Origin: Escherichia coli
GTDB lineage: Bacteria; Pseudomonadota; Gammaproteobacteria; Enterobacterales; Enterobacteriaceae
NCBI RefSeq assembly: GCF_002854065.1
Contig: NZ_CP024147.1
Reading direction: 5' to 3' (one strand)
Length of the DNA stretch: 64,000 nt
Shown: positions 1 to 39,739 of the stretch, piece after piece
How positions within the stretch are numbered: position 1 is the stretch's first letter
Layout: every line of letters starts with the position of its first letter
The notes under the pieces: generated by a model
The model's input: only the letters and a program-made list of their open reading frames with translations
The model's database searches: none
Told to the model about the DNA's origin: nothing
Program-made: the position numbers and the translations under genes

Positions 1-163
1 AACCAGACCGGGAGGAATGTTAGCCCCGCGCCGTCGTTAACCAAATCCCACGCCAGGGGAACAGACTGGCGGACCTTCAAAGACGGTCGCACACCGTGTT
101 TGACATAATTTATTGTTTTTTGCTTGCTCTTATTATTGCAGCCGTTAGGGTAATGACTCCAAC

Positions 164-667
164 TTATTGATAGTGTTTTATGTTCAGATAATGCCCGATG
201 ACTTTGTCATGCAGCTCCACCGATTTTGAGAACGACAGCGACTTCCGTCCCAGCCGTGCCAGGTGCTGCCTCAGATTCAGGTTATGCCGCTCAATTCGCT
301 GCGTATATCGCTTGCTGATTACGTGCAGCTTTCCCTTCAGGCGGGATTCATACAGCGGCCAGCCATCCGTCATCCATATCACCACGTCAAAGGGTGACAG
401 CAGGCTCATAAGACGCCCCAGCGTCGCCATAGTGCGTTCACCGAATACGTGCGCAACAACCGTCTTCCGGAGACTGTCATACGCGTAAAACAGCCAGCGC
501 TGGCGCGATTTAGCCCCGACGTATCCCCACTGTTCGTCCATTTCCGCGCAGACGATGACGTCACTGCCCGGCTGTATGCGCGAGGTTACCGACTGCGGCC
601 TGAGTTTTTTAAATGGCGGAAAATCGTGTTGAGGCCAACGCCCATAATGCGGGCGGTTGCCCGGCAT
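164..667 (-). CDS. insB: IS1 InsB (C-terminal part of InsAB' transposase, made by -1 frameshift)
   Basis: 167-aa ORF overlapping insA 3' end in the -1 frame; A6C slippery motif present. Confidence 0.9.
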
Positions 668-861
668 CCAACGCCATTCATGGCCATATCAATGATTTTC
701 TGGTGCGTACCGGGTTGAGAAGCGGTGTAAGTGAACTGCAGTTGCCATGTTTTACGGCAGTGAGAGCAGAGATAGCGCTGATGTCCGGCAGTGCTTTTGC
801 CGTTACGCACCACCCCGTCAGTAGCTGAACAGGAGGGACAGCTGATAGAAACAGAAGCCAC
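586..861 (-). CDS. insA: IS1 InsA (transposition repressor / N-terminal part of InsAB' transposase)
   Basis: 91-aa [25 protein letters not shown]... recognised as IS1 InsA. Confidence 0.93.
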
Positions 862-988
862 TGGAGCACCTCAAAAACACCATCATACACTAAATCAGTA
901 AGTTGGCAGCATCACCAGCTTTACTAATATATTGCAGCTGGACCGCTTACCCTGAATATTCAGGGTAAGCGTGAGAGTTAAAAAAGAA

Positions 989-12485: not shown

Positions 12486-15400
12486 ATGGCGAATTTCTTT
12501 ATTGATCGCCCCATTTTTGCCTGGGTGCTGGCAATCCTGTTGTGTCTGACAGGTACCCTGGCGATTTTTTCATTGCCCGTTGAACAATACCCCGATCTCG
12601 CGCCACCGAATGTGCGAGTGACCGCTAACTATCCCGGCGCATCGGCCCAGACGCTGGAAAACACCGTGACCCAGGTTATCGAGCAAAATATGACTGGCCT
12701 CGATAATCTCATGTATATGTCATCTCAGAGCAGTGGCACCGGTCAGGCATCTGTCACTTTAAGTTTTAAAGCAGGCACCGATCCGGACGAAGCCGTGCAG
12801 CAAGTACAAAACCAGCTGCAATCAGCCATGCGAAAGTTACCGCAGGCGGTGCAAAATCAGGGCGTGACGGTGCGTAAAACCGGCGATACCAACATTCTGA
12901 CCATTGCCTTCGTCTCTACCGATGGTTCGATGGATAAACAGGATATTGCTGATTATGTTGCCAGTAATATTCAGGACCCGTTAAGCCGCGTGAATGGCGT
13001 CGGGGATATCGATGCCTATGGTTCGCAATATTCCATGCGTATCTGGCTGGACCCGGCGAAACTCAACAGTTTCCAGATGACGGCTAAAGATGTCACTGAT
13101 GCCATTGAGTCACAGAACGCGCAGATTGCGGTTGGGCAACTTGGGGGTACACCTTCCGTCGATAAGCAGGCGCTCAACGCCACCATTAACGCCCAGTCAC
13201 TGCTGCAAACACCAGAACAGTTCCGCGATATCACCTTGCGGGTGAATCAGGACGGCTCAGAGGTAAGGCTGGGCGATGTCGCCACCGTCGAAATGGGGGC
13301 GGAGAAATACGATTATCTTAGCCGCTTCAATGGTAAGCCAGCCTCCGGGCTGGGGGTAAAACTGGCCTCCGGCGCTAACGAAATGGCGACAGCGGAGCTG
13401 GTGCTCAATCGTCTCGACGAGCTGGCGCAGTATTTCCCGCATGGACTGGAATACAAGGTGGCGTATGAAACCACCTCGTTTGTTAAAGCCTCCATTGAAG
13501 ACGTGGTGAAAACGCTGCTGGAAGCTATCGCTCTGGTTTTCCTCGTTATGTATCTGTTCCTGCAAAACTTCCGCGCCACGCTGATACCCACTATCGCCGT
13601 GCCGGTGGTGTTGATGGGAACCTTCTCCGTACTTTACGCCTTCGGTTACAGCGTCAACACCTTAACCATGTTCGCGATGGTGCTGGCGATCGGTCTGCTG
13701 GTGGATGACGCCATCGTGGTGGTGGAAAACGTCGAACGTATTATGAGTGAGGAAGGACTCACTCCTCGCGAAGCCACACGTAAATCGATGGGGCAGATCC
13801 AGGGGGCACTGGTCGGGATTGCGATGGTGCTTTCGGCGGTATTTGTACCAATGGCCTTCTTCGGCGGCACCACCGGTGCCATCTATCGCCAGTTCTCTAT
13901 TACCATTGTTGCGGCGATGGTGCTGTCAGTACTGGTAGCGATGATCCTCACTCCGGCTCTGTGTGCCACACTACTTAAGCCACTGAAAAAAGGTGAGCAT
14001 CACGGGCAAAAAGGCTTTTTTGCCTGGTTTAACCAGATGTTTAACCGCAACGCCGAACGCTTCGAAAAAGGGGTGGCGAAAATTCTCCACCGCAGCCTGC
14101 GCTGGATTGTGATTTATGTCCTGCTGCTTGGCGGCATGGTGTTCCTGTTCCTGCGTTTGCCGACGTCGTTCTTACCGCTGGAAGACCGTGGCATGTTTAC
14201 TACCTCGGTACAATTGCCCAGCGGTTCAACCCAACAACAGACCCTGAAAGTCGTTGAGCAAATCGAGAAATATTACTTCACCCATGAAAAAGACAACATC
14301 ATGTCGGTGTTTGCCACTGTTGGTTCTGGCCCTGGGGGTAACGGGCAAAACGTGGCGCGAATGTTTATCCGCCTGAAAGACTGGAGCGAACGCGACAGTA
14401 AGACCGGCACCTCATTTGCCATTATCGAGCGTGCAACGAAGGCGTTTAACAAGATTAAAGAAGCTCGCGTTATCGCCAGCAGCCCGCCAGCAATTAGCGG
14501 TCTTGGTAGTTCTGCGGGTTTTGATATGGAGTTGCAGGACCACGCTGGAGCAGGTCACGATGCGCTGATGGCAGCACGTAACCAGTTGCTGGCGCTGGCG
14601 GCGGAAAACCCGGAGCTAACCCGTGTGCGCCATAACGGCCTCGACGACAGTCCGCAGTTGCAGATTGATATCGACCAGCGTAAAGCTCAGGCGCTGGGCG
14701 TTGCTATCGACGATATTAACGACACACTGCAAACCGCCTGGGGTTCGAGCTATGTGAATGACTTTATGGATCGCGGTCGCGTGAAGAAAGTCTATGTGCA
14801 GGCAGCTGCGCCGTATCGCATGCTGCCAGATGACATCAATCTCTGGTATGTCCGAAATAAAGATGGCGGCATGGTGCCCTTCTCTGCTTTCGCGACCTCA
14901 CGCTGGGAGACAGGCTCGCCGCGTCTGGAACGCTATAACGGTTATTCTGCGGTTGAAATTGTTGGGGAAGCCGCACCGGGGGTCAGTACCGGTACGGCGA
15001 TGGATATTATGGAATCGTTAGTGAAGCAGCTGCCAAACGGCTTTGGTCTGGAGTGGACGGCGATGTCGTATCAGGAGCGGCTTTCCGGCGCGCAGGCTCC
15101 GGCGCTGTACGCCATTTCCTTGCTGGTGGTATTCCTGTGTCTGGCTGCATTGTATGAAAGCTGGTCGGTACCGTTCTCGGTAATGCTGGTCGTGCCGCTG
15201 GGGGTAATCGGCGCGCTGCTGGCAACCTGGATGCGCGGGCTGGAAAACGACGTTTACTTCCAGGTGGGCCTGTTAACGGTCATTGGTTTATCGGCGAAAA
15301 ACGCCATCCTGATCGTCGAGTTTGCTAACGAGATGAACCAAAAAGGCCACGACCTGTTTGAAGCAACGCTCCACGCCTGCCGTCAGCGTTTACGCCCGAT

Positions 15401-15599
15401 TCTGATGACCTCGCTGGCATTTATCTTCGGCGTATTGCCAATGGCAACCAGCACGGGTGCCGGTTCCGGTGGTCAGCATGCGGTGGGTACTGGCGTAATG
15501 GGCGGGATGATTTCAGCTACTATTCTGGCTATTTACTTCGTGCCGCTGTTCTTTGTGCTGGTGCGCCGCCGCTTCCCGCTGAAGCCGCGCCCGGAATAA
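12486..15599 (+). CDS. acrD: RND-family aminoglycoside efflux pump AcrD
   Basis: 1037-aa [26 protein letters not shown]...; RND transporter; length and neighbours match AcrD. Confidence 0.95.
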
Positions 15600-25820: not shown

Positions 25821-26015
25821 TTACTTTGCTCCATTCCGTGCTGGCTGCGCTTGCGGTCAGCACACCTCACTTATCGTGATCAAGATCACATTCTCGCTTT
25901 CCCCTGCGACACGGGTGTCGAATCCATTTTTTGCTGAACGTTAATGACCATCATTTTTGTACCGTTCAGAATCCAGTTAATTCATAAATTATTGAATATA
26001 TTAAATTAATCAGAC

Positions 26016-26031
26016 TGGCATCCTTTATGCA
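26016..26031 (+). promoter_or_regulatory. Sigma-54 (-24/-12) promoter of the hyf operon
   Basis: tggcatcctttatgca matches TGGCAC-N5-TTGCA spacing (GG at 26017-26018, GC at 26029-26030); HyfR, a sigma-54 activator, is encoded downstream. Confidence 0.65.
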
Positions 26032-26033
26032 AT

Positions 26034-26690
26034 ATGAAATGCAATGTTTCATATCATTTTCAAGGAGCCGACATAAACCGCTTTGTGGTGGCCGAACCAC
26101 TGTGGTGTACAGGATGTAATACCTGTCTCGCTGCCTGTTCGGACGTGCATAAAACGCAAGGTTTACAGCAACACCCGCGCCTGGCCCTGGCGAAGACGTC
26201 AACACTCACTGCCCCTGTCGTGTGTCATCACTGTGAGGAAGCCCCTTGCCTGCAGGTCTGCCCGGTCAATGCCATCTCCCAGAGGGATGATGCGATCCAA
26301 CTCAACGAAAGCCTCTGTATTGGCTGCAAGCTTTGCGCCGTGGTCTGCCCATTTGGCGCAATCAGCGCTTCAGGAAGCCGTCCGGTGAATGCCCCTGCGC
26401 AATATGTTTTTCAGGCTGAAGGCTCACTCAAAGACGGCGAAGAAAACGCGCCAACCCAACATGCTTTGCTGCGCTGGGAACCGGGTGTCCAGACCGTCGC
26501 GGTGAAATGCGACCTGTGTGATTTCTTGCCACAAGGTCCGGCCTGCGTTCGCGCTTGCCCGAATCAGGCGTTACGGCTGATCACCGACGATAGCCTGCAA
26601 CGTCAGATGAAAGAAAAACAGCGCCTTGCCGCAAGCTGGTTTGCCAATGGCGGGGAGGATCCCCTTTCCCTCACTCAGGAGCAACGCTAA
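26034..26690 (+). CDS. hyfA: Hydrogenase-4 ferredoxin-type subunit HyfA (start codon uncertain)
   Basis: Four-cluster ferredoxin (CxxCxxCxxxC motifs); ORF-track ATG 26034 has no SD and lies upstream of the predicted sigma-54 start site; strong SD aaggag (26062-26067) precedes an ATA codon at 26073 where I recall the protein (MNRFVVAEP..., 205 aa) beginning. Confidence 0.85.
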   Translation: MKCNVSYHFQGADINRFVVAEPLWCTGCNTCLAACSDVHKTQGLQQHPRLALAKTSTLTAPVVCHHCEEAPCLQVCPVNAISQRDDAIQLNESLCIGCKLCAVVCPFGAISASGSRPVNAPAQYVFQAEGSLKDGEENAPTQHALLRWEPGVQTVAVKCDLCDFLPQGPACVRACPNQALRLITDDSLQRQMKEKQRLAASWFANGGEDPLSLTQEQR

Positions 26691-28708
26691 TGGATGCCCT
26701 GCAATTATTAACCTGGTCGCTGATCCTCTATCTGTTTGCCAGTCTGGCTTCGCTGTTTTTACTCGGTCTGGACAGACTGGCTATTAAGCTTTCCGGCATC
26801 ACATCGCTGGTGGGCGGCGTGATTGGCATTATCAGCGGAATTACGCAATTACATGCAGGCGTAACTTTAGTCGCCCGTTTTGCCACCCCTTTTGACTTTG
26901 CCGATTTAACCCTGCGAATGGATAGCCTCTCGGCATTTATGGTGCTGGTTATCTCCTTGCTGGTGGTGGTTTGTTCGCTCTATTCATTGACTTATATGCG
27001 CGAATACGAGGGCAAAGGCGCGGCGGCGATGGGCTTCTTTATGAATATTTTCATCGCATCGATGGTTGCCCTGCTGGTGATGGACAACGCTTTTTGGTTC
27101 ATCGTGCTGTTTGAAATGATGTCACTGTCTTCCTGGTTTCTGGTCATTGCCAGGCAGGATAAAAGGTCGATCAACGCTGGCATGCTCTACTTTTTTATCG
27201 CCCACGCCGGATCGGTGCTGATAATGATCGCCTTCTTGCTGATGGGGCGCGAAAGCGGCAGCCTCGATTTTGCCAGTTTCCGCACGCTTTCACTTTCTCC
27301 GGGGCTGGCGTCGGCGGTGTTCCTGCTGGCCTTTTTCGGTTTTGGCGCGAAAGCCGGGATGATGCCGTTGCACAGCTGGTTGCCGCGCGCTCACCCTGCC
27401 GCACCATCGCACGCTTCGGCGTTGATGTCTGGCGTAATGGTCAAAATCGGTATTTTCGGCATCCTGAAAGTGGCGATGGATCTGCTGGCGCAAACGGGTT
27501 TGCCGCTGTGGTGGGGCATTCTGGTGATGGCGATCGGCGCAATCTCCGCGCTCCTGGGCGTGCTGTATGCGCTGGCGGAACAGGATATCAAACGGCTGCT
27601 GGCCTGGAGTACCGTCGAAAACGTCGGCATTATTTTGCTGGCAGTCGGTGTGGCGATGGTCGGTCTGTCACTGCACGACCCGCTGCTCACCGTGGTTGGA
27701 CTGCTCGGCGCACTGTTTCATCTGCTCAACCATGCGCTGTTCAAAGGGCTGCTATTTCTCGGCGCGGGCGCGATTATTTCGCGTTTGCATACCCACGACA
27801 TGGAAAAAATGGGGGCACTGGCGAAACGGATGCCGTGGACAGCCGCAGCATGCCTGATTGGTTGCCTCGCGATATCAGCCATTCCTCCGCTGAATGGTTT
27901 TATCAGCGAATGGTACACCTGGCAGTCGCTGTTCTCACTAAGTCGTGTGGAAGCCGTAGCGCTACAACTTGCGGGTCCTATTGCTATGGTAATGCTGGCA
28001 GTCACTGGTGGGCTGGCAGTAATGTGCTTCGTCAAAATGTACGGTATTACTTTCTGTGGTGCGCCGCGCAGTACACACGCTGAAGAGGCACAGGAAGTGC
28101 CAAATACGATGATCGTCGCCATGCTACTGCTCGCGGCACTCTGCGTATTAATTGCGCTTAGTGCCAGTTGGCTGGCACCGAAGATAATGCATATTGCCCA
28201 TGCGTTTACCAATACCCCTCCCGTCACTGTCGCCAGCGGAATAGCACTTGTACCCGGCACGTTTCATACACAGGTCACCCCCTCATTACTGTTGCTGTTA
28301 CTACTGGCGATGCCTTTGCTGCCTGGCCTTTACTGGCTGTGGTGTCGTTCGCGCCGCGCAGCGTTTCGTCGCACAGGAGATGCCTGGGCATGCGGCTACG
28401 GCTGGGAAAATGCGATGGCCCCGTCAGGCAATGGCGTGATGCAGCCGCTGCGTGTGGTCTTTTCTGCGCTATTTCGTCTACGACAACAGCTCGACCCTAC
28501 GCTGAGGCTAAATAAAGGCCTTGCGCACGTCACCGCCAGGGCTCAGAGCACAGAACCCTTCTGGGATGAGCGGGTGATCCGCCCCATCGTGAGCGCCACC
28601 CAACGGCTGGCCAAAGAAATACAGCATCTGCAAAGCGGCGACTTTCGTCTCTATTGCCTGTATGTGGTTGCCGCACTGGTTGTGCTGCTAATCGCTATTG
28701 CCGTCTAA
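26690..28708 (+). CDS. hyfB: Hydrogenase-4 membrane subunit HyfB (NuoL/MrpA antiporter-like)
   Basis: 672-aa polytopic membrane ORF; start overlaps hyfA stop (taATGg). Confidence 0.93.
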   Translation: MDALQLLTWSLILYLFASLASLFLLGLDRLAIKLSGITSLVGGVIGIISGITQLHAGVTLVARFATPFDFADLTLRMDSLSAFMVLVISLLVVVCSLYSLTYMREYEGKGAAAMGFFMNIFIASMVALLVMDNAFWFIVLFEMMSLSSWFLVIARQDKRSINAGMLYFFIAHAGSVLIMIAFLLMGRESGSLDFASFRTLSLSPGLASAVFLLAFFGFGAKAGMMPLHSWLPRAHPAAPSHASALMSGVMVKIGIFGILKVAMDLLAQTGLPLWWGILVMAIGAISALLGVLYALAEQDIKRLLAWSTVENVGIILLAVGVAMVGLSLHDPLLTVVGLLGALFHLLNHALFKGLLFLGAGAIISRLHTHDMEKMGALAKRMPWTAAACLIGCLAISAIPPLNGFISEWYTWQSLFSLSRVEAVALQLAGPIAMVMLAVTGGLAVMCFVKMYGITFCGAPRSTHAEEAQEVPNTMIVAMLLLAALCVLIALSASWLAPKIMHIAHAFTNTPPVTVASGIALVPGTFHTQVTPSLLLLLLLAMPLLPGLYWLWCRSRRAAFRRTGDAWACGYGWENAMAPSGNGVMQPLRVVFSALFRLRQQLDPTLRLNKGLAHVTARAQSTEPFWDERVIRPIVSATQRLAKEIQHLQSGDFRLYCLYVVAALVVLLIAIAV

Positions 28709-28718
28709 GGAAATCACC

Positions 28719-29666
28719 ATGAGACAAACTCTTTGCGACGGATATCTGGTCATTCTTGCGTTAGCACAGGCCGTGATTCTGCTGATGCTAACCCCACTTT
28801 TTACGGGTATTTCCCGGCAGATACGCGCGCGAATGCACTCCCGCCGCGGACCGGGGATCTGGCAGGATTATCGCGATATCCACAAACTGTTTAAACGCCA
28901 GGAAGTTGCGCCGACATCTTCAGGTCTGATGTTCCGCCTGATGCCGTGGGTATTAATCAGCAGCATGCTGGTGCTGGCGATGGCCCTACCACTATTTATT
29001 ACCGTTTCCCCTTTTGCGGGCGGCGGCGATCTGATCACCCTTATCTATCTTCTTGCCCTGTTTCGTTTTTTCTTTGCTCTTTCAGGGCTGGATACCGGAA
29101 GCCCGTTTGCGGGAGTCGGTGCCAGTCGCGAGTTGACGCTCGGCATTCTGGTCGAACCCATGCTCATTCTCTCACTGCTGGTATTGGCGCTGATAGCGGA
29201 TTCCACGCATATCGAGATGATCAGCAATACGCTGGCGATGGGCTGGAACTCGCCGCTAACCACCGTACTGGCGTTACTGGCCTGTGGTTTTGCCTGCTTC
29301 ATTGAGATGGGAAAAATTCCCTTTGATGTTGCTGAAGCAGAACAGGAATTACAGGAAGGCCCGCTGACAGAATATTCCGGTGCCGGGCTGGCGCTGGCGA
29401 AATGGGGGCTGGGGCTGAAACAGGTCGTGATGGCAGCACTGTTTGTGGCCCTGTTTCTGCCCTTTGAGCGCGCGCAAGAACTTTCTCTCGCCTGCCTGCT
29501 GACTTCACTTGTCGTTACGCTGCTCAAGGTTTTGCTGATTTTTGTACTGGCCTCAATCGCAGAAAACACGCTGGCACGCGGGCGTTTTTTACTCATTCAC
29601 CATGTGACCTGGCTTGGCTTCAGCCTTGCTGCGCTTGCATGGGTCTTCTGGTTAACCGGTCTGTAA
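28719..29666 (+). CDS. hyfC: Hydrogenase-4 membrane subunit HyfC (NuoH-like)
   Basis: Start set at MRQTLCDGYLVILALAQ (315 aa). Confidence 0.92.
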   Translation: MRQTLCDGYLVILALAQAVILLMLTPLFTGISRQIRARMHSRRGPGIWQDYRDIHKLFKRQEVAPTSSGLMFRLMPWVLISSMLVLAMALPLFITVSPFAGGGDLITLIYLLALFRFFFALSGLDTGSPFAGVGASRELTLGILVEPMLILSLLVLALIADSTHIEMISNTLAMGWNSPLTTVLALLACGFACFIEMGKIPFDVAEAEQELQEGPLTEYSGAGLALAKWGLGLKQVVMAALFVALFLPFERAQELSLACLLTSLVVTLLKVLLIFVLASIAENTLARGRFLLIHHVTWLGFSLAALAWVFWLTGL

Positions 29667-29682
29667 GGAGCACTGACGGAAT

Positions 29683-31122
29683 ATGGAAAATCTTGCTCTG
29701 ACGACGTTAATGCTGCCTTTTATCGGCGCACTGGTCGTTTCGTTTTCGCCACAACGTCGGGCCGCCGAATGGGGGGTTTTGTTCGCCGCGCTGACCACGC
29801 TGTGCATGTTGTCGCTGATCTCCGCGTTTTATCAGGCCGATAAAGTTGCCGTCACGTTGACGTTGGTCAACGTGGGGGATGTGGCATTGTTTGGCCTGGT
29901 CATTGATCGCGTGAGTACGCTGATTCTGTTTGTGGTGGTGTTTCTCGGTTTGCTGGTCACGATCTACTCCACGGGTTATCTGACGGATAAAAATCGCGAA
30001 CACCCGCATAACGGCACGAATCGTTATTACGCATTTTTGCTGTTGTTTATCGGCGCGATGGCGGGACTGGTACTCTCCTCGACGCTGCTCGGTCAGTTGT
30101 TGTTTTTTGAAATTACGGGCGGCTGCTCCTGGGCGTTGATCAGTTATTACCAGAGCGATAAAGCACAGCGTTCAGCACTAAAAGCGTTACTTATCACTCA
30201 TATCGGCTCGTTGGGGTTGTATCTTGCCGCCGCCACGCTGTTTTTGCAGACCGAAACGTTTGCGCTTAGCGCGATGAGCGAGTTACACGGCGACGCACGT
30301 TATCTGGTTTATGGCGGCATCCTGTTTTCCGCGTGGGGGAAATCGGCCCAGCTACCGATGCAAGCGTGGCTACCGGACGCAATGGAAGCGCCAACACCGA
30401 TCAGCGCCTATCTCCACGCCGCATCGATGGTGAAAGTGGGCGTTTACATTTTTGCCCGCGCCATTATCGACGGCGGCAATATCCCGCATGTGATTGGCGG
30501 CGTTGGCATGGTCATGGCGCTGGTCACCATTCTTTATGGCTTCCTGATGTATTTGCCACAGCAGGATATGAAGCGGTTGCTGGCCTGGTCGACCATCACT
30601 CAACTTGGCTGGATGTTCTTCGGCTTGTCGCTCTCCATCTTCGGCTCGCGGCTGGCGCTGGAGGGCAGCATCGCCTACATCGTCAACCACGCGTTCGCTA
30701 AAAGCCTGTTTTTCCTTGTAGCAGGTGCGCTGAGTTACAGCTGCGGCACGCGCTTGTTGCCGCGTCTGCGTGGCGTATTGCACACCCTGCCGTTGCCAGG
30801 CGTGGGTTTCTGCGTGGCAGCGCTGGCGATTACCGGCGTACCGCCGTTCAACGGCTTCTTCAGTAAATTCCCGCTGTTTGCTGCCGGTTTTGCGTTGTCA
30901 GTGGAGTACTGGATCCTGCTGCCCGCCATGATTCTGCTGATGATTGAATCGGTCGCCAGTTTCGCCTGGTTTATTCGCTGGTTTGGTCGCGTCGTCCCCG
31001 GCAAACCGAGCGAGGCCGTCGCCGATGCCGCACCGCTGCCAGGGTCAATGCGCCTGGTGCTGATTGTACTGATTGTGATGTCGCTGATTTCCAGCGTAAT
31101 CGCCGCGACCTGGTTGCAGTAA
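29683..31122 (+). CDS. hyfD: Hydrogenase-4 membrane subunit HyfD (antiporter-like)
   Basis: 479-aa membrane ORF, NuoM/N-like. Confidence 0.92.
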   Translation: MENLALTTLMLPFIGALVVSFSPQRRAAEWGVLFAALTTLCMLSLISAFYQADKVAVTLTLVNVGDVALFGLVIDRVSTLILFVVVFLGLLVTIYSTGYLTDKNREHPHNGTNRYYAFLLLFIGAMAGLVLSSTLLGQLLFFEITGGCSWALISYYQSDKAQRSALKALLITHIGSLGLYLAAATLFLQTETFALSAMSELHGDARYLVYGGILFSAWGKSAQLPMQAWLPDAMEAPTPISAYLHAASMVKVGVYIFARAIIDGGNIPHVIGGVGMVMALVTILYGFLMYLPQQDMKRLLAWSTITQLGWMFFGLSLSIFGSRLALEGSIAYIVNHAFAKSLFFLVAGALSYSCGTRLLPRLRGVLHTLPLPGVGFCVAALAITGVPPFNGFFSKFPLFAAGFALSVEYWILLPAMILLMIESVASFAWFIRWFGRVVPGKPSEAVADAAPLPGSMRLVLIVLIVMSLISSVIAATWLQ

Positions 31123-31133
31123 GGAGATGATGA

Positions 31134-31784
31134 ATGACCGGTTCTATGATCGTAAATAATCTGGCGGGACTGATGATGCTGACATCGCTGTTTGTGATTA
31201 GCGTCAAAAGCTATCGCCTGTCATGCGGATTTTACGCCTGCCAGTCGCTGGTGCTGGTGTCTATTTTCGCCACTCTCTCGTGCCTGTTCACCGCAGAGCA
31301 ACTGCTGATCTGGTCCGCCAGCGCCTTTATCACCAAAGTGCTGCTGGTACCGTTAATCATGACTTACGCTGCACGAAATATTCCCCAGAACATCCCGGAA
31401 AAAGCGTTATTCGGTCCGGCAATGATGGCACTGCTCGCGGCGTTAATTGTCCTGCTTTGCGCATTTGTCGTTCAGCCCGTGAAGCTACCGATGGCTACCG
31501 GACTGAAACCGGCGCTGGCGGTGGCGTTAGGTCATTTTCTGCTTGGCCTGCTGTGCATTGTTAGCCAGCGCAATATCCTGCGGCAAATTTTTGGTTACTG
31601 CCTGATGGAAAACGGCTCCCATCTGGTGCTGGCGCTTCTAGCCTGGCGTGCACCGGAACTGGTGGAAATTGGTATCGCTACCGACGCCATCTTCGCCGTC
31701 ATTGTGATGGTGTTACTGGCAAGAAAAATATGGCGTACCCACGGCACGCTGGACGTGAACAACTTGACCGCGCTGAAGGGATAA
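31134..31784 (+). CDS. hyfE: Hydrogenase-4 membrane subunit HyfE
   Basis: 216-aa membrane ORF in operon position. Confidence 0.9.
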
Positions 31785-31788
31785 TGAG

Positions 31789-33369
31789 ATGAGTTATTCT
31801 GTGATGTTCGCTTTACTCCTGCTCACGCCGCTGCTTTTTTCGCTGCTCTGTTTTGCCTGCCGGAAACGGGGGCACTCTGCGACTCGCACGGTGACAGTAT
31901 TACATTGCTTAGGGATCACACTGCTGCTGATTCTGGCACTCTGGGTGGTCCAAACTGCCGCTGATGCAGGAGAAATATTCGCTGCGGGACTGTGGCTTCA
32001 TATTGATGGTCTGGGCGGTTTGTTCCTCGCCATTCTTGGTGTGATTGGCTTTCTCACCGGTGTTTACTCGATTGGCTACATGCGTCATGAAGTGGCACAC
32101 GGCGAGCTTTCACCCGTTACGCTGTGCGATTACTACGGTTTCTTCCATCTGTTTTTGTTCACCATGCTGCTGGTTGTTACCAGCAATAACCTGATTGTGA
32201 TGTGGGCGGCGATCGAAGCCACCACCTTAAGCTCGGCGTTTCTGGTAGGCATTTACGGTCAGCGTTCATCGCTGGAAGCAGCATGGAAGTACATCATTAT
32301 TTGTACTGTTGGTGTCGCTTTTGGTCTGTTCGGTACCGTGCTGGTATACGCCAACGCCGCCAGCGTTATGCCGCAGGCAGAAATGGCGATATTCTGGAGC
32401 GAGGTTCTTAAGCAATCGTCCTTGCTTGACCCAACATTAATGCTGTTGGCCTTTGTGTTTGTGCTAATTGGCTTTGGCACTAAAACCGGGCTATTCCCCA
32501 TGCACGCCTGGCTGCCAGATGCTCACAGTGAAGCGCCGAGTCCGGTCAGCGCCCTGCTCTCCGCCGTATTGCTGAACTGCGCGCTGTTGGTGCTTATTCG
32601 CTATTACATCATTATTTGCCAGGCCATCGGCAGCGATTTCCCCAACCGGTTATTGCTCATCTTCGGCATGTTGTCGGTTGCCGTGGCGGCATTTTTCATT
32701 CTGGTACAGCGGGACATTAAGCGTCTGCTGGCGTACTCCAGCGTGGAGAACATGGGACTGGTCGCGGTGGCGTTAGGCATTGGCGGGCCGCTGGGAATTT
32801 TTGCCGCGCTGCTGCACACCTTAAACCACAGTCTGGCAAAAACGCTGCTGTTCTGCGGTTCCGGCAATGTACTGCTCAAGTACGGCACACGCGATCTCAA
32901 CGTCGTCTGTGGGATGCTCAAAATCATGCCATTTACCGCCGTGCTGTTTGGCGGCGGTGCGCTGGCGCTGGCAGGGATGCCGCCCTTCAACATTTTTCTT
33001 AGCGAATTTATGACCGTTACCGCCGGACTGGCACGTAATCATCTGCTGATTATCGTCCTGCTGTTATTGCTGTTAACGCTGGTGCTGGCGGGCCTGGTAC
33101 GGATGGCTGCGCGGGTGTTAATGGCGAAACCGCCGCAGGCCGTTAACCGGGGTGATCTCGGCTGGTTGACCACCTCGCCAATGGTGATTCTGCTGGTCAT
33201 GATGCTGGCGATGGGAACGCATATTCCACAACCTGTCATCAGGATCCTGGCGGGCGCTTCCACTATAGTCCTCTCAGGGACGCACGACCTGCCTGCACAA
33301 CGTAGCACCTGGCATGATTTTTTGCCTTCAGGCACCGCATCTGTTTCGGAGAAACACAGTGAACGTTAA
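31789..33369 (+). CDS. hyfF: Hydrogenase-4 membrane subunit HyfF (antiporter-like)
   Basis: 526-aa membrane ORF, NuoN-like. Confidence 0.92.
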
Positions 33370-35074
33370 TTCATCGTCAAATCGTGGCGAAGCGATTCTC
33401 GCCGCCCTGAAAACGCAGTTCCCCGGCGCGGTGCTGGATGAAGAGCGACAAACGCCTGAACAGGTCACCATTACGGTGAAAATCAATCTGCTGCCTGACG
33501 TTGTACAGTATCTTTATTATCAACATGATGGCTGGCTTCCGGTCCTGTTTGGCAACGACGAGCGGACACTTAACGGTCATTACGCGGTTTATTATGCCCT
33601 TTCTATGGAAGGGGCCGAAAAATGCTGGATCGTGGTGAAGGCACTGGTCGATGCCGACAGTCGGGAGTTTCCGTCAGTCACACCGCGCGTCCCTGCCGCG
33701 GTCTGGGGCGAGCGAGAAATTCGCGATATGTACGGGCTGATTCCGGTTGGCCTGCCGGATCAGCGTCGCCTGGTGTTGCCCGATGACTGGCCGGAAGATA
33801 TGCATCCGCTGCGCAAAGATGCGATGGATTATCGACTGCGCCCTGAACCGACGACTGATTCCGAAACGTATCCGTTTATCAATAAGGGCAACAGCGATGC
33901 GCGGGTGATCCCTGTCGGCCCGCTGCATATCACCTCCGATGAACCGGGTCACTTCCGCTTGTTTGTGGATGGCGAGCAAATTGTCGATGCTGATTACCGC
34001 CTGTTTTATGTCCATCGCGGCATGGAGAAACTGGCAGAAACGCGGATGGGCTACAACGAAGTGACCTTCTTATCGGACCGCGTGTGTGGGATTTGCGGTT
34101 TTGCCCACAGTGTGGCCTATACCAACTCGGTTGAAAATGCACTGAGGATTGAGGTGCCGCAACGAGCGCATACCATTCGCTCGATTCTGCTGGAAGTCGA
34201 ACGGTTACACAGTCATTTGCTCAACCTTGGCCTCTCCTGCCATTTTGTTGGTTTTGATACCGGCTTTATGCAATTTTTCCGCGTGCGGGAAAAGTCGATG
34301 ACAATGGCGGAATTGCTGACCGGGTCGCGTAAAACCTACGGTCTGAATCTGATTGGTGGTGTTCGCCGCGATATTCTCAAAGAGCAACGTCTGCAAACGC
34401 TGAAACTGGTGCGCGAGATGCGCGCCGACGTGTCGGAGCTGGTAGAAATGCTGCTTGCCACGCCGAATATGGAACAACGCACTCAGGGCATTGGCATTCT
34501 CGACCGACAAATCGCCCGTGATTATAGCCCTGTAGGGCCGCTGATCCGCGGCAGTGGTTTTGCCCGTGATTTGCGCTTTGATCACCCCTACGCCGACTAC
34601 GGCAATATTCCAAAAACACTGTTTACCTTCACCGGCGGCGATGTTTTCTCCCGCGTGATGGTCCGTGTCAAAGAGACGTTTGATTCGCTGGCAATGCTGG
34701 AATTTGCTCTCGACAACATGCCGGATACCCCACTGCTGACCGAAGGCTTTAGCTATAAACCTCACGCATTCGCGCTCGGCTTTGTTGAAGCGCCACGCGG
34801 TGAAGACGTGCACTGGAGCATGCTCGGTGATAACCAAAAATTGTTCCGCTGGCGCTGTCGTGCCGCCACCTACGCCAACTGGCCGGTGCTGCGTTACATG
34901 CTACGCGGCAATACCGTTTCTGACGCACCGCTGATTATCGGTAGCCTTGATCCCTGCTACTCCTGTACCGACCGTGTGACGCTGGTTGATGTGCGCAAGC
35001 GCCAGTCAAAAACCGTGCCGTATAAAGAGATCGAACGCTACGGCATTGATCGTAACCGTTCGCCGCTGAAGTAA
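33359..35074 (+). CDS. hyfG: Hydrogenase-4 large (NiFe catalytic) subunit HyfG
   Basis: GTG 33359 preceded by ggaga (33347-33351); ORF-track ATG 33314 lacks SD; N-terminal RxCGxC-type motif ([11 protein letters not shown]) and C-terminal DPCYSCTDR Ni-binding motif. Confidence 0.9.
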
Positions 35075-35083
35075 GGACAGAAG

Positions 35084-35629
35084 ATGCTGAAGTTACTGAA
35101 AACTATTATGCGCGCCGGAACCGCGACGGTGAAATATCCCTTCGCGCCACTGGAGGTCAGCCCAGGCTTTCGCGGGAAACCGGACCTGATGCCCAGCCAA
35201 TGTATTGCCTGCGGTGCCTGCGCCTGTGCTTGTCCGGCAAATGCGCTGACTATCCAGACCGACGACCAGCAAAATTCGCGCACCTGGCAGCTCTATCTGG
35301 GGCGTTGTATTTACTGCGGACGTTGTGAAGAAGTGTGCCCGACCAGAGCCATCCAGCTTACCAATAACTTTGAACTGACCGTCACCAATAAAGCCGATCT
35401 CTATACCCGCGCGACGTTCCATCTACAACGTTGCAGCCGTTGCGAACGCCCGTTTGCCCCGCAAAAAACCGTCGCACTGGCTGCTGAATTGTTGGCACAG
35501 CAACAAAATGCGCCACAAAACCGCGAAATGTTGCGGGCGCAAGCGAGCGTCTGCCCGGAGTGCAAACAACGCGCGACGCTGATCAACGACGATACAGATG
35601 TACCGCTGGTGGCTAAGGAGCAGCTATGA
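35084..35629 (+). CDS. hyfH: Hydrogenase-4 ferredoxin subunit HyfH
   Basis: 181-aa ORF with two 4Fe-4S motifs ([24 protein letters not shown]). Confidence 0.92.
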
Positions 35630-36384
35630 GTCCAGTGCTTACACAACATGTCAGCCAGCCCATCACGCTAGACGAGCAAACGCAAAAGATGAAGCGGCAT
35701 TTGCTACAGGATATCCGTCGCTCAGCCTACGTTTATCGCGTCGATTGCGGCGGCTGCAACGCCTGTGAAATCGAAATTTTTGCCGCCATCACACCAGTAT
35801 TCGACGCAGAACGTTTTGGCATTAAGGTTGTTTCATCACCGCGTCACGCCGATATTTTGTTATTTACTGGCGCAGTCACCCGGGCGATGCGTATGCCTGC
35901 ACTTCGGGCGTATGAGTCTGCCCCCGATCATAAAATCTGTGTTTCCTACGGCGCGTGCGGTGTCGGCGGCGGTATTTTCCACGATCTCTACAGCGTCTGG
36001 GGCGGCAGCGACACCATTGTCCCCATTGATGTTTGGATCCCCGGCTGCCCGCCAACACCGGCCGCCACCATTCACGGTTTCGCCGTGGCGCTCGGTTTGC
36101 TGCAACAGAAGATTCACGCGGTGGATTATCGCGATCCCACCGGGGTGACTATGCAACCGCTGTGGCCGCAGATCCCGCCATCACAGCGTATCGCCGTTGA
36201 GCGAGAAGCGCGGCGGCTGGCGGGCTATCGTCAGGGGCGAGAAATTTGCGATCGTCTCCTGCGCCATTTAAGCGATGATCCTACAGGAAATCGGGTTAAC
36301 ACCTGGTTGCGCGAAGCCGACGATCCGCGTCTCAATAGTATCGTTCAGCAACTCTTTCGCGTACTCCGGGGGTTACATGACTGA
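35626..36384 (+). CDS. hyfI: Hydrogenase-4 small subunit HyfI (NuoB-like)
   Basis: 252-aa ORF; start overlaps hyfH stop; NuoB-like Cys motifs. Confidence 0.92.
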
Positions 36385-36790
36385 AGAGTGCGGGGAAATT
36401 GTTTTCTGGACGCTGCGAAAAAAGTTTGTCGCCAGTAGCGACGAGATGCCGGAACACAGCTCTCAGGTAATGTATTACTCACTGGCTATCGGTCATCACG
36501 TTGGCGTGATTGATTGTCTGAATGTCGCCTTCCGCTGCCCACTGACGGAATACGAAGATTGGCTTGCACTGGTCGAAGAGGAGCAAGCCCGACGTAAGAT
36601 GCTGGGGGTGATGACTTTTGGTGAGATTGTTATTGACACCAGCCACACCGCCCTGTTGACCCGGGCATTCGCGCCACTGGCGGATGACGCGACGTCTGTG
36701 TGGCAGGCGCGTAGCATTCAATTCATTCATCTGTTGGATGAAATTGTGCAGGAACCGGCCATCTATCTGATGGCCAGAAAAATTGCGTGA
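36377..36790 (+). CDS. hyfJ: Hydrogenase-4 component HyfJ (HycH-like)
   Basis: Start set at [16 protein letters not shown] (137 aa), overlapping hyfI stop (ATGACTGA); ORF track over-extended. Confidence 0.88.
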
Positions 36791-36819
36791 GAAGGATTTC
36801 TCATTAATAAGGACTGTTG

Positions 36820-38832
36820 ATGGCTATGTCAGACGAGGCGATGTTTGCCCCGCCACAAGGAATAACAATTGAAGCGGTAAACGGAATGCTCGCGGAGCGG
36901 TTAGCACAGAAACACGGCAAGGCGTCTTTATTACGCGCCTTCATCCCGCTGCCGCCGCCGTTCAGCCCGGTACAACTTATTGAACTGCATGTTCTCAAAA
37001 GCAACTTCTATTACCGCTACCATGATGATGGCAGCGATGTGACGGCAACAGTAGAGTATCAGGGCGAGATGGTCGATTATTCGCGTCACGCCGTCCTTCT
37101 CGGCAGTAGAGGAATGGCGGAGCTACGCTTTATACGTACCCACGGCAGCCGTTTTACTCCCCAGGATTGCACACTGTTTAACTGGCTGGCACGCATTATC
37201 ACCCCGGTTCTGCAATCATGGCTCAATGATGAAGAACAACAGGTGGCGCTGCGTTTGCTGAAGAAAGATTGCGATCATCATCGGGTACTGGTGGATATCA
37301 CTAATGCAGTGCTGTCACATCTTGATCTCGACGATCTGATCGCTGACGTCGCTCGTGAGATCCATCATTTTTTCGGTCTGGCTTCAGTCAGTATGGTACT
37401 GGGCGATCATCGAAAGAACGAGAAGTTCAGCCTGTGGTGCAGCGATCTTTCTGCCTCACATTGTGCGTGTCTGCCACGCAATATGCCTGGCGACAGTGTA
37501 TTGCTGACACAAACGCTACAAACCCGACAACCGACCTTGACGCACCGTGCAGACGATCTGTTTCTCTGGCAACGCGACCCGTTATTACACTTACTTGCAT
37601 CTAACGGCTGCGAATCTGCGCTCCTTATACCGCTTACCTTTGGCAACCATACACCGGGTGCATTGTTGCTGGCGCATACCTCTTCCACTCTCTTTAGTGA
37701 GGAAAACTGCCAGCTACTACAACACATAGCCGATCGCATCGCTATTGCCGTTGGCAATGCCGATGCCTGGCGTAGCATGACCGATTTGCAGGAAAGTTTG
37801 CAGCAAGAAAACCACCAGCTTAGCGAGCAGCTCCTTTCGAATCTGGGCGTCGGTGACATTATCTATCAAAGCCAGGCAATGGAAGACCTGCTCCAGCAGG
37901 TAGATATTGTGGCGAGGAGCGACAGTACGGTGTTGATTTGCGGTGAAACCGGAACTGGCAAAGAGGTGATCGCCAGAGCGATCCATCAACTTAGCCCGCG
38001 ACGCGACAAGCCGCTGGTCAAAATCAACTGCGCTGCCATCCCCGCCAGTCTTCTGGAAAGTGAGTTATTCGGTCATGACAAAGGGGCGTTTACTGGTGCG
38101 ATTAATACCCATCGTGGTCGTTTTGAAATTGCCGATGGCGGCACGTTGTTTCTCGATGAAATTGGCGATCTGCCGTTAGAACTTCAGCCTAAACTGCTGC
38201 GCGTATTGCAGGAGCGGGAGATTGAGCGTCTCGGCGGGAGTAGAACGATCCCGGTGAATGTCAGAGTCATTGCCGCCACCAACCGTGATTTGTGGCAAAT
38301 GGTTGAAGATCGCCAGTTTCGCAGCGATCTCTTTTATCGCCTGAATGTCTTCCCACTGGAATTGCCGCCGCTACGCGACCGTCCGGAAGATATCCCTCTT
38401 TTAGCAAAACATTTCACGCAAAAAATGGCGCGCCATATGAATCGCGCAATTGACGCCATCCCGACCGAGGCACTACGCCAGTTGATGTCGTGGGATTGGC
38501 CGGGCAACGTGCGCGAGCTGGAAAACGTGATTGAGCGGGCGGTACTGCTGACTCGCGGTAACAGTCTGAATTTACATCTAAATGTCCGACAAAGCCGTTT
38601 ACTGCCGACGCTAAATGAAGATTCAGCGCTTCGCAGTTCAATGGCGCAGTTGCTGCACCCGACGACGCCAGAGAATGACGAAGAAGAACGTCAGCGCATT
38701 GTTCAGGTATTGCGAGAAACCAATGGCATTGTTGCCGGGCCCCGTGGCGCGGCGACACGATTAGGGATGAAGCGCACCACGCTGCTGTCACGAATGCAGC
38801 GTCTGGGGATCTCGGTTCGCGAGGTGTTGTAA
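36820..38832 (+). CDS. hyfR: Sigma-54-dependent transcriptional activator HyfR (FhlA homologue)
   Basis: GAF-type N-terminal region, AAA+ sigma-54 interaction domain ([14 protein letters not shown]), C-terminal HTH. Confidence 0.93.
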
Positions 38833-38853
38833 TCTGCTTTTGCAGGAGTATGC

Positions 38854-39702
38854 ATGAGAAATAAACTCTCTTTCGACTTGCAGTTGAGCGCCAGAAAAGC
38901 GGCAATCGCTGAACGGATTGCCGCCCATAAAATTGCCCGCAGTAAAGTGTCGGTCTTTTTAATGGCGATGTCCGCTGGCGTGTTTATGGCGATTGGATTT
39001 ACTTTTTACCTTTCCGTTATCGCCGATGCCCCGTCTTCACAGGCATTAACCCATCTGGTGGGCGGCCTTTGCTTTACACTCGGCTTTATTTTGCTGGCGG
39101 TTTGCGGCACCAGCCTGTTCACCTCGTCGGTAATGACGGTGATGGCAAAAAGTCGGGGCGTTATTAGTTGGCGAACTTGGCTGATTAACGCACTTCTGGT
39201 GGCCTGCGGTAATCTGGCAGGTATTGCCTGTTTCAGTTTGTTAATCTGGTTTTCCGGGCTGGTGATGAGTGAAAACGCGATGTGGGGAGTCGCGGTTTTA
39301 CACTGCGCCGAGGGCAAAATGCATCATACATTTACTGAATCTGTCAGCCTCGGCATTATGTGCAATCTGATGGTTTGCCTGGCGCTGTGGATGAGTTATT
39401 GCGGGCGTTCGTTATGCGACAAAATCGTCGCCATGATTTTGCCCATCACCCTGTTTGTCGCCAGTGGCTTTGAGCACTGTATCGCCAATTTGTTTGTGAT
39501 TCCGTTCGCCATTGCCATTCGCCATTTCGCCCCTACCTCCTTCTGGCAACTGGCGCACAGTAGCGCAGACAATTTTCCGGCACTGACGGTAAGCCATTTT
39601 ATTACCGCCAATCTGCTCCCGGTGATGCTGGGTAATATTATCGGCGGTGCAGTGCTGGTGAGTATGTGTTATCGGGCTATTTATTTACGTCAGGAATCCT
39701 GA
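38854..39702 (+). CDS. focB: Formate channel FocB (FNT family)
   Basis: 282-aa membrane ORF; formate/nitrite transporter family; follows hyfR. Confidence 0.92.
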   Translation: MRNKLSFDLQLSARKAAIAERIAAHKIARSKVSVFLMAMSAGVFMAIGFTFYLSVIADAPSSQALTHLVGGLCFTLGFILLAVCGTSLFTSSVMTVMAKSRGVISWRTWLINALLVACGNLAGIACFSLLIWFSGLVMSENAMWGVAVLHCAEGKMHHTFTESVSLGIMCNLMVCLALWMSYCGRSLCDKIVAMILPITLFVASGFEHCIANLFVIPFAIAIRHFAPTSFWQLAHSSADNFPALTVSHFITANLLPVMLGNIIGGAVLVSMCYRAIYLRQES

Positions 39703-39739
39703 AAAATCAGCCCGGCGAAACAGTTCGTCGGGCTGAAGA

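What the first reader, a model, noticed from the sequence alone, without database searches (positions are those of the whole stretch)
26034..39702. Intact hydrogenase-4 locus with dedicated sigma-54 activator and formate channel
All ten hyf structural genes plus hyfR and focB are present with tight or overlapping junctions (hyfA/B, hyfH/I, hyfI/J), implying translational coupling. Unlike hyc, this complex carries three antiporter-like membrane subunits (HyfB, HyfD, HyfF), consistent with a proposed energy-conserving formate hydrogenlyase. No maturation endopeptidase gene lies in the locus. The operon is reported as poorly expressed in K-12, which makes its complete conservation here, beside the possible hyfA start defect, worth noting.
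Basis: partly seen in the sequence, partly recalled or inferred. Interest (0 to 1): 0.35.

Follow-up and report, generated by a model that had tools for sequence, protein, structure and literature searches.

The report
Known E. coli hydrogenase-4 (hyf) operon
This is the well-known 12-gene E. coli hyf operon for a second, complex-I-like formate hydrogenlyase: every reading frame is intact and its catalytic subunit is the full-length ancestral form that the K-12 reference lacks, but its first gene has lost its ATG start codon through a mutation seen in no other sequenced E. coli.

Summary
[quoted passage not shown] All 12 frames are open, with the expected domains and catalytic motifs. The real hyfA start is 26073, and there the window has ATA instead of ATG. 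This G>A is private: 0 of 4297 complete E. coli genomes, and 0 metagenome contigs against 76 with ATG. The nearest genome differs by 12 substitutions in 61.6 kb and has ATG. AUA initiates at about 1-2% of AUG, so HyfA is probably strongly under-produced. K-12 hyfG carries a 48-bp deletion between 10-bp direct repeats. It removes 16 residues, including the arginine equivalent to HycE Arg395 of the conserved proton pathway. About half of hyf-bearing E. coli share this deletion, and many also carry shared frameshifts in hyfB, hyfD and hyfI. The window has none of these. Verdict: an already known operon of the ancestral, intact type with one private start-codon lesion. The K-12 deletion is a testable lead on why hydrogenase-4 activity was not detected in engineered K-12 strains.

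The parts
26016..26031 (+). sigma-54 type -24/-12 promoter element TGGCATCCTTTATGCA (GG and GC 10 nt apart), 42-57 nt upstream of the hyfA start
   Evidence: Pattern match (13 matches in the window against 7.4 expected, so the motif alone is not significant). Sequence identical to K-12 across the element. K-12's mapped sigma-54 promoter and a transcript start about 30 nt upstream of hyfA are recalled from Skibinski et al. 2002, which was not readable here.
26073..26690 (+). hyfA, 205-codon 4x[4Fe-4S] ferredoxin (HycB homologue). Start codon is ATA instead of ATG (G>A at 26075). Shine-Dalgarno AAGGAG at 26061-26066.
26690..28708 (+). hyfB, antiporter-like membrane subunit (PF00361), 672 aa
28719..29666 (+). 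hyfC, NuoH-like membrane subunit (PF00146), 315 aa
29683..31122 (+). hyfD, antiporter-like membrane subunit (PF00361, PF00662), 479 aa
31134..31784 (+). hyfE, membrane subunit with NuoK-like C-terminal half (PF00420), 216 aa; specific to FHL-2
31789..33369 (+). hyfF, antiporter-like membrane subunit (PF00361, PF00662), 526 aa
33359..35074 (+). hyfG, [NiFe] large subunit (NuoC-NuoD-like), 571 aa, GTG start. Motifs [10 protein letters not shown] (241), SDEPGH (193), GPLIRGSG (393), DPCYSCTDR (531).
34514..34561 (+). 48-bp segment of hyfG that is absent in K-12. It is bounded by the 10-bp direct repeat GCCCGTGATT and encodes [16 protein letters not shown], including Arg397 (= HycE Arg395).
35084..35629 (+). 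hyfH, 2x[4Fe-4S] ferredoxin (NuoI/HycF-like), 181 aa
35626..36384 (+). hyfI, hydrogenase small subunit (NuoB-like, PF01058), 252 aa
36377..36790 (+). hyfJ, HycH-family assembly protein (PF07450), 137 aa
36820..38832 (+). hyfR, sigma-54 enhancer-binding activator: GAF + AAA+ sigma-54 interaction domain, GAFTGA at residue 422, 670 aa
38854..39702 (+). focB, formate/nitrite transporter family channel (PF01226), 282 aa
39707..39736 (.). 13-bp-stem hairpin between convergent focB and yfgO; likely bidirectional terminator closing the operon

Best explanation
The region is the chromosomal E. coli hyfABCDEFGHIJR-focB operon. It encodes hydrogenase-4, the core of formate hydrogenlyase-2 (FHL-2), a group-4a [NiFe] hydrogenase built like complex I.

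Expected working (inferred from family knowledge, not tested here):
- Transcription starts at a sigma-54 promoter (26016-26031), driven by formate-responsive activators (HyfR from this operon, FhlA from elsewhere).
- FocB moves formate across the membrane.
- FdhH, encoded elsewhere, oxidises formate.
- Electrons pass HyfA > HyfH > HyfI to the [NiFe] site of HyfG, where protons are reduced to H2.
- The membrane arm (HyfC and HyfE plus three antiporter-like subunits HyfB, HyfD and HyfF) may couple this to ion translocation.
- Maturation depends on Hyp proteins and the HycI protease, both encoded elsewhere.

Shown here:
- This copy is the ancestral type. All frames are open and HyfG is full length with every catalytic motif. 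It has none of the loss-of-function alleles common in other E. coli.
- Its single lesion is a private G>A that turns the hyfA start codon ATG into ATA.

Most likely consequence (inferred): HyfA, the ferredoxin that should link FdhH to the hydrogenase, is made at a few percent of normal or less. FHL-2 would then be knocked down in this strain even when the operon is transcribed.
For: Identity and integrity:
- Synteny and 98-100% identity to annotated hyf operons.
- Gene-by-gene comparison with K-12 shows no stops or frameshifts.
- Pfam domains are as expected for all 12 products.
- Ni-binding, proton-relay and GAFTGA motifs are present.

Start codon:
- ATA sits exactly where K-12 has ATG, 6 nt after AAGGAG. 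HycB Met1 aligns to the same codon.
- No complete genome matches the 61-bp stretch perfectly (0 of 4297).
- The ATA 40-mer is in 0 metagenome contigs; the ATG 40-mer is in 76.
- All 16 other sampled loci have G at 26075.
- The nearest genome differs at only 12 sites in 61.6 kb and has ATG.
- AUA initiates at about 1-2% (range 0.02-3%) of AUG in E. coli reporters (10.1101/063800).
- The upstream in-frame ATG at 26034 lies 4 nt after the -12 GC of the promoter and has no Shine-Dalgarno sequence. It is probably not on the sigma-54 transcript.
- The next in-frame GTGs (codons 5 and 6) are 18 and 21 nt from the Shine-Dalgarno sequence.

The operon type is functional in nature: dN/dS is 0.08-0.15 among lineages with intact operons.
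Against: - There is no expression or activity data for this strain.
- In the papers read here, FHL-2 activity had not been directly demonstrated in E. coli. The engineered strains tested were K-12 derivatives (PMC7654741).
- The single base could be a sequencing or assembly error.
- Weak initiation at ATA, or at the downstream GTGs, might give enough HyfA.
- HycB from the hyc operon might substitute for HyfA.
- The transcript start used to exclude the 26034 ATG is recalled from Skibinski et al. 2002. It could not be read here.
Confidence: 0.85

Rival explanations
1. The operon in this lineage is already dispensable and has begun to decay. The start-codon loss is the first neutral hit in a gene set that E. 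coli as a species is losing, not a knock-down of a working enzyme.
For: - hyf is absent from 1128 of 5426 complete genomes.
- Shared loss-of-function alleles are common among hyf-bearing genomes: hyfG 48-bp deletion in about 2113, hyfB 1-bp deletion in at least 1257, hyfD 1-bp deletion in at least 994, hyfD 208-bp deletion in about 930, hyfI 1-bp deletion in at least 683.
- These alleles occur in mosaic combinations and are also seen in metagenome contigs.
- No Hyd-4 activity was found in any engineered K-12 strain (PMC7654741).
Against: - Lineages with intact operons show clear purifying selection (dN/dS 0.08-0.15).
- The other two hyf differences from the nearest genome are synonymous.
- One private SNP cannot distinguish the onset of decay from a recent deleterious mutation.
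Confidence: 0.3
2. The A at 26075 is a sequencing or assembly error. The operon is fully wild type, identical in function to that of strain 100416.
For: - It is a single base and is unique among more than 4000 genomes.
- The window otherwise differs from strain 100416 at only 11 other substitutions in 61.6 kb.
Against: - Eleven other substitutions spread over the window show that this is a distinct, slightly diverged isolate.
- The site is not in a homopolymer, nor in a GATC or CCWGG methylation motif (sequence).
- G>A transitions are an ordinary mutation class.
Confidence: 0.12
3. HyfA is still made in useful amounts, and FHL-2 in this strain is functionally normal. Routes would be initiation at ATA helped by the strong AAGGAG, initiation at GTG codons 5 or 6 (losing four residues ahead of the first Cys motif at residue 12), or the upstream ATG on read-through transcripts from bcp.
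For: - A strong Shine-Dalgarno sequence lies 6 nt upstream of ATA.
- The first cluster motif starts at residue 12, so a 4-residue truncation might be tolerated.
- PGAP accepts ATA-class starts under table 11. Near-cognate starts do give measurable protein.
Against: - AUA gave only 0.02-3% of AUG.
- The GTGs lie 18-21 nt from the Shine-Dalgarno sequence.
- A hairpin followed by a T-run lies after bcp (25907-25920).
- The 26034 ATG has no Shine-Dalgarno sequence and overlaps the promoter.
- No natural E. coli uses a non-ATG start here.
Confidence: 0.2

Closest known systems
E. coli K-12 MG1655 hyfABCDEFGHIJR-focB (b2481-b2492)
   Same: Same locus, flanking genes, gene order, junction architecture and promoter element. 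Eleven of the 12 products have the same length, with 1-10 amino-acid differences each.
   Different: - K-12 has ATG at hyfA; the window has ATA.
- K-12 hyfG lacks 48 bp (16 aa, [16 protein letters not shown]) that the window retains. The retained segment raises the PF00346 score from 129.6 to 170.7 bits.
- The base just before the -24 TGGCA is C here and A in K-12.
E. coli hyc operon / formate hydrogenlyase-1 (cryo-EM structure 7Z0S/7Z0T)
   Same: HyfG aligns to HycE without gaps from residue 7 to the end (E = 2e-291). HyfA aligns to HycB from its Met1. The Ni-binding and proton-pathway residues are the same.
   Different: FHL-1 has two membrane subunits (HycC, HycD). hyf adds HyfD, HyfE and HyfF. 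hyc carries its own protease gene (hycI) and a repressor (hycA). hyf carries an activator (hyfR) and a formate channel (focB) instead (PMC7654741).
Active FHL-2 of Pectobacterium atrosepticum and Trabulsiella guamensis
   Same: Same subunit set hyfA-J. The large subunits are 75-88% identical, with the full ARD..GP..R.SG segment. These enzymes do evolve H2 from formate (PMC7384014; 10.1101/563510).
   Different: Those operons encode a HycI-type protease, HyfK. The E. coli operon does not and must rely on hycI elsewhere (PMC7654741).
Respiratory complex I (NuoB, CD, H, I, K, L/M/N)
   Same: Homologous modules: PF00346/PF00329 (HyfG), PF01058 (HyfI), PF00146 (HyfC), PF00420 (HyfE), PF00361 (HyfB, D, F).
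   Different: A [NiFe] site replaces the quinone pocket. There is no NADH-input module; formate dehydrogenase H is the electron donor.

Membership tests
E. coli hyf operon (hydrogenase-4 / FHL-2, group 4a [NiFe]-hydrogenase) | Twelve cistrons in the order hyfA-B-C-D-E-F-G-H-I-J-R-focB between bcp and yfgO | tested here: met
E. coli hyf operon (hydrogenase-4 / FHL-2, group 4a [NiFe]-hydrogenase) | Large subunit with N-terminal RxCGxCxxxH and C-terminal DPCxxCxxR nickel-binding motifs and a C-terminal assembly peptide | tested here: met
   [10 protein letters not shown] at 241 and DPCYSCTDR at 531, followed by 32 residues. Aligns gaplessly to HycE.
E. coli hyf operon (hydrogenase-4 / FHL-2, group 4a [NiFe]-hydrogenase) | FHL-2-specific extra membrane subunits (HyfD, HyfE, HyfF) beyond the HycC/HycD pair | tested here: met
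   PF00361 in HyfB, HyfD and HyfF; PF00420 in HyfE; PF00146 in HyfC
E. coli hyf operon (hydrogenase-4 / FHL-2, group 4a [NiFe]-hydrogenase) | A usable canonical start codon for every cistron | tested here: not met
   hyfA has ATA where all other E. coli have ATG. The other 11 start with ATG or GTG, as in K-12.
E. coli hyf operon (hydrogenase-4 / FHL-2, group 4a [NiFe]-hydrogenase) | Sigma-54 -24/-12 promoter upstream of hyfA | tested here: met
   TGGCAT-N5-ATGCA at 26016-26031, identical to K-12. Promoter activity itself is not testable here.
E. coli hyf operon (hydrogenase-4 / FHL-2, group 4a [NiFe]-hydrogenase) | Formate-dependent H2 evolution | not testable with these tools
   Needs physiology. 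Not detected in K-12 derivatives (PMC7654741).
Energy-converting (ion-translocating) complex-I-like hydrogenase | Antiporter-like subunits and a NuoH/NuoK-like connecting module | tested here: met
Energy-converting (ion-translocating) complex-I-like hydrogenase | Actual coupling of H2 formation to ion translocation | not testable with these tools
   Proposed in the literature (Andrews 1997, cited in PMC13277316). Not shown for E. coli.
Sigma-54 bacterial enhancer-binding proteins (HyfR) | AAA+ sigma-54 interaction domain with GAFTGA loop, plus a sensory domain and C-terminal helix-turn-helix | tested here: met
   PF00158 (E = 6.7e-75), GAF domain, GAFTGA at 422. The C-terminal helix-turn-helix was not separately scored.
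Formate/nitrite transporter family (FocB) | PF01226 over the full length | tested here: met
   E = 5.3e-64, residues 20-273
HycI-type maturation endopeptidase in the locus | A protease gene (HycI/HyfK) within the operon | tested here: not met
   No unassigned coding space on the + strand. HyfJ is HycH family. The seven largest antisense ORFs have no family.

The most novel reading that the evidence does not exclude
The window's full-length hyfG exposes the K-12 reference allele as a derived 48-bp deletion between direct repeats. About half of hyf-bearing E. coli share it.

The deletion removes 16 residues that are invariant in length and nearly invariant in sequence across Enterobacterales HyfG/HycE. 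They include the arginine equivalent to HycE Arg395 of the conserved proton pathway.

Together with shared frameshifts in hyfB, hyfD and hyfI in the same population, this may be why Hyd-4/FHL-2 activity has never been detected in K-12, even after promoter replacement. On this reading, active E. coli FHL-2 should be sought in strains with the ancestral operon, such as this haplotype with ATG restored, or O157:H7.

I found no mention of the deletion or of these pseudogene alleles in the searchable literature. The key older papers and reviews could not be read.
Probability: 0.3. Interest if true: 0.65.

Novelty: already known. Interest (0 to 1): 0.35.

Why it matters
As a locus this is textbook material. 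It matters in two modest ways.

First, the strain carries a natural start-codon knock-down of the first cistron of an otherwise ancestral hyf operon. It would be a ready-made near-isogenic pair with strain 100416, which has ATG.

Second, and more generally, comparing it with K-12 shows that the laboratory reference may be a poor model for this enzyme. K-12 HyfG lacks a conserved 16-residue segment containing a proton-pathway arginine. Much of the A/B1-like E. coli population carries further frameshifts. Lineages with intact operons, by contrast, show purifying selection.

A preprint from the field calls E. coli FHL-2 a 'long-standing mystery' (10.1101/563510). This comparison turns it into a direct experiment: restore the 48 bp in K-12, or assay a strain with the ancestral operon.

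Tried and rejected
- The 218-codon frame from ATG 26034 as the true hyfA was rejected. HycB Met1 and the K-12 start align to codon 14. The ATG lies inside the promoter, 4 nt after the -12 GC, and has no Shine-Dalgarno sequence.
- A 16-aa insertion in the window's hyfG was rejected. The segment is collinear with HycE and is present in 114 of 120 homologue clusters. The six without it are E. coli/Shigella-type proteins: five show the K-12-type deletion junction, and one is a truncated Shigella protein in which the region was not located.
- The frameshifts in other genomes as sequencing errors or homopolymer slippage were rejected for the main ones. Several are not in homopolymers. They are linked to neighbouring SNPs, recur across unrelated assemblies and appear in metagenome contigs.
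- A hidden protease or other gene on the opposite strand was rejected.
- Literature searches for a prior description of the hyfG deletion or hyf pseudogenes found nothing relevant. One search was badly specified and useless.
- Skibinski 2002 and Self 2004 are not held. The transcript start and the 'silent operon' data therefore rest on memory and on citations in PMC7384014 and PMC7654741.
- Not attempted: AlphaFold models of the two HyfG alleles (judged not decisive), phylogroup typing, and a genome-by-genome count of fully intact operons.
Full report
**What is there.**
Window 26034-39702 matches 4298 of 5426 complete E. coli genomes over essentially its full length, always on the chromosome. 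The best hit is strain 100416, at 100.0%. The annotations of that genome and of K-12 MG1655 give the same layout: bcp, then hyfA-B-C-D-E-F-G-H-I-J-R-focB, then convergent yfgO. The window genes were translated at the homologous coordinates and aligned to K-12. All 12 frames are open and have no internal stops. Each product differs from K-12 by 1-10 amino acids. There is a single length difference, in hyfG.

Pfam assigns the expected families:
- HyfA and HyfH: 4Fe-4S ferredoxins.
- HyfB, HyfD and HyfF: PF00361, antiporter-like.
- HyfC: NuoH-like.
- HyfE: NuoK-like.
- HyfG: PF00329 + PF00346 + NiFeSe_Hases.
- HyfI: NuoB-like.
- HyfJ: HycH family.
- HyfR: GAF + sigma-54 AAA+ domain.
- FocB: formate/nitrite transporter family.

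The catalytic and regulatory motifs are in place:
- Hyf[25 protein letters not shown] and DPCYSCTDR followed by a 32-residue tail.
- HyfR: GAFTGA.
- HyfA and HyfH: CxxCxxCxxxC motifs.

Junctions are tight. hyfA/B overlap by 1 nt, hyfF/G by 11 nt, hyfH/I by 4 nt and hyfI/J by 8 nt. Other gaps are 4-29 nt. The 12 genes leave no room for a protease gene, and the seven largest antisense ORFs match nothing. A 13-bp-stem hairpin at 39707-39736 closes the operon against yfgO.

**The hyfA start.**
The gene starts at 26073. K-12 starts there, 6 nt after AAGGAG. Met1 of HycB in the FHL-1 structure aligns to exactly that codon, which is residue 14 of the 218-codon frame. In the window this codon is ATA.

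The change is private:
- A 61-bp query centred on it hits 4297 genomes, none of them perfectly.
- All 16 loci fetched for comparison have G at 26075.
- The 40-mer with ATA occurs in no metagenome contig. The ATG version occurs in 76.
- The nearest genome differs from the window at 12 substitutions in 61.6 kb. Three are in hyf: this one and two synonymous changes in hyfC and hyfI.

So this is a slightly diverged sister isolate, and the base is probably real. A single-base error cannot be excluded.

AUA supports initiation at about 1-2% of AUG (range 0.02-3% across constructs) in E. coli reporters (10.1101/063800). The alternatives look poor:
- The upstream ATG at 26034 begins 4 nt after the -12 GC of the sigma-54 element TGGCATCCTTTATGCA (26016-26031) and has no Shine-Dalgarno sequence.
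- From memory of Skibinski et al. 2002, which could not be read here, the transcript starts about 30 nt upstream of hyfA. That is downstream of this ATG.
- A hairpin with a T-run lies after bcp, which argues against read-through transcripts.
- The in-frame GTGs at codons 5 and 6 are 18 and 21 nt from the Shine-Dalgarno sequence.

I infer a strong reduction of HyfA. HyfA is the HycB-like ferredoxin that in FHL-1 links formate dehydrogenase H to the hydrogenase (PMC9474812).

**The hyfG length difference is a lesion in K-12, not in the window.**
K-12 lacks 48 bp (window 34514-34561) bounded by the 10-bp direct repeat GCCCGTGATT. This is the signature of a slippage or microhomology deletion. The missing peptide is [16 protein letters not shown].
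- It is collinear with HycE ARDFSNVGPMVRASGH in the solved structure.
- Of 120 homologue clusters, 114 keep ARD[YF]S[PN]VGP..R.SG. The six that do not are E. coli/Shigella-type proteins: five show the same deletion junction, and one is a truncated Shigella protein.
- The deletion costs K-12 HyfG 41 bits on the PF00346 profile.
- Allowing for the 12-residue tag offset in 7Z0S, the arginine in the segment is HycE Arg395. The FHL-1 structure paper places this residue, with His284 and Glu437, in a proton pathway conserved in FHL, MBH, soluble hydrogenases and complex I (PMC9474812).

A 100-bp query across the site is fully covered in 2179 genomes and only 36% covered in the remaining roughly 2113. 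All eight partially covered genomes inspected (seven fetched from that search, plus K-12) have the 48-bp deletion, and none of the eight fully covered ones has it.

**hyf is decaying in much of E. coli.**
The fetched loci show recurrent lesions:
- 1-bp deletions in hyfB (27280), hyfD (29771, 30116), hyfI (35973) and focB (39534).
- A 208-bp deletion in hyfD (30440).
- Internal stops in hyfF and hyfG.
- An IS element in focB.

The lesions occur in mosaic combinations. They are linked to nearby SNPs, and several are not in homopolymers. They are therefore inherited alleles shuffled by recombination, not sequencing errors.

Allele-specific searches give these counts among complete genomes:
- At least 1257 with the hyfB frameshift.
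- At least 994 with the hyfD frameshift.
- At least 683 with the hyfI frameshift.
- About 930 without the 208-bp hyfD segment.
- 1128 without hyf at all.

The same alleles appear in metagenome contigs. In my sample, 5 of 8 genomes with full-length hyfG are otherwise intact: strain 100416, O157:H7 PV15-279, 2D, 3347558 and 100117. Among genomes with the deletion, only K-12 and AF51 have no further lesion.

Concatenated dN/dS is 0.08-0.15 among intact lineages and 0.13-0.22 among decayed ones. The operon type in the window has therefore been under purifying selection. Constraint in the decayed group is only mildly relaxed, so the lesions are recent relative to total divergence.

**Comparison with what is known.**
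This is the hyf operon of Andrews et al. 1997. Its closest relatives are the K-12 copy, FHL-1 (hyc), and the active FHL-2 enzymes of Pectobacterium and Trabulsiella, which carry their own protease gene hyfK (PMC7384014, PMC7654741, 10.1101/563510). Finney et al. 2020 built 15 K-12 strains with new promoters and HyfG-HycE C-terminal fusions. They saw no Hyd-4 activity and concluded that protease supply is not the sole limit. Neither that paper nor any other I could search mentions the 16-residue deletion or the pseudogene alleles. Older closed-access papers and reviews were not available, so novelty is not established.

**Verdict.**
The finding is a correct description of an already known operon, so its intrinsic interest is low. 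Two additions are worth keeping:
1. The start-codon defect is real, private to this sequence and probably disabling for HyfA.
2. The window's operon is the ancestral, selected form. The K-12 reference and a large part of the species carry lesions. This gives a concrete, testable lead on the old puzzle of silent hydrogenase-4.

I give the combined reading (true and not yet reported) a probability of about 0.3.

Noticed in passing
window 34514-34561 (hyfG); K-12 locus L003 near 11641: K-12 hyfG carries a 48-bp deletion between 10-bp direct repeats (GCCCGTGATT). It removes 16 conserved residues, including the HycE Arg395 equivalent. About 2113 of 4292 hyf-bearing complete genomes share it.
   Followed up: yes
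window coordinates 27280 (hyfB), 29771, 30116 and 30440-30647 (hyfD), 35973 (hyfI), 39534 (focB); loci L007, L008, L011, L013-L018: Shared frameshift and deletion alleles, plus internal stops in hyfF and hyfG, segregate in mosaic combinations in other E. coli. Each is present in hundreds to more than a thousand complete genomes. The window has none of them.
   Followed up: partly
window 35214 (hyfH) and 32958 (hyfF), relative to L008, L016, L013, L014: In-frame 6-bp indels (a 6-bp deletion in hyfH within GCCTGCGGTGCCTGCGCC; a 6-bp insertion in hyfF) are shared by several strains. Their effect is unknown.
   Followed up: no
window 25907-25920: Perfect inverted repeat CGACAC-GGGTGTCG followed by a T-run, between bcp and the hyf promoter. 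It could be the bcp terminator or an activator (FhlA/HyfR) binding site. It is invariant in all 17 sequences compared.
   Followed up: no
window 26015: The base just before the -24 TGGCA is C in the window and other E-type haplotypes but A in K-12-type haplotypes. C fits the sigma-54 consensus (YTGGCAC) better. There are further haplotype differences in the AT-rich stretch 25982-26005.
   Followed up: partly
window 148-916 and about 61715-61722; L004/L005: An IS1 copy lies at window 148-916. The nearest genome (strain 100416) has an extra IS1 splitting an adhesin gene at the position matching window ~61722, where the window is uninterrupted. There is also a 1-nt indel at window 62301 in that adhesin region.
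   Followed up: no
L011 (O145 RM8995-C1), locus 14056-15501: ISEc20 is inserted in focB at the alignment position (window 39534) where ET915 and CI5 have a 1-bp deletion. This may be coincidence or an alignment effect.
   Followed up: no
window 39707-39736: A strong 13-bp-stem hairpin sits between convergent focB and yfgO. It is likely a bidirectional terminator.
   Followed up: partly
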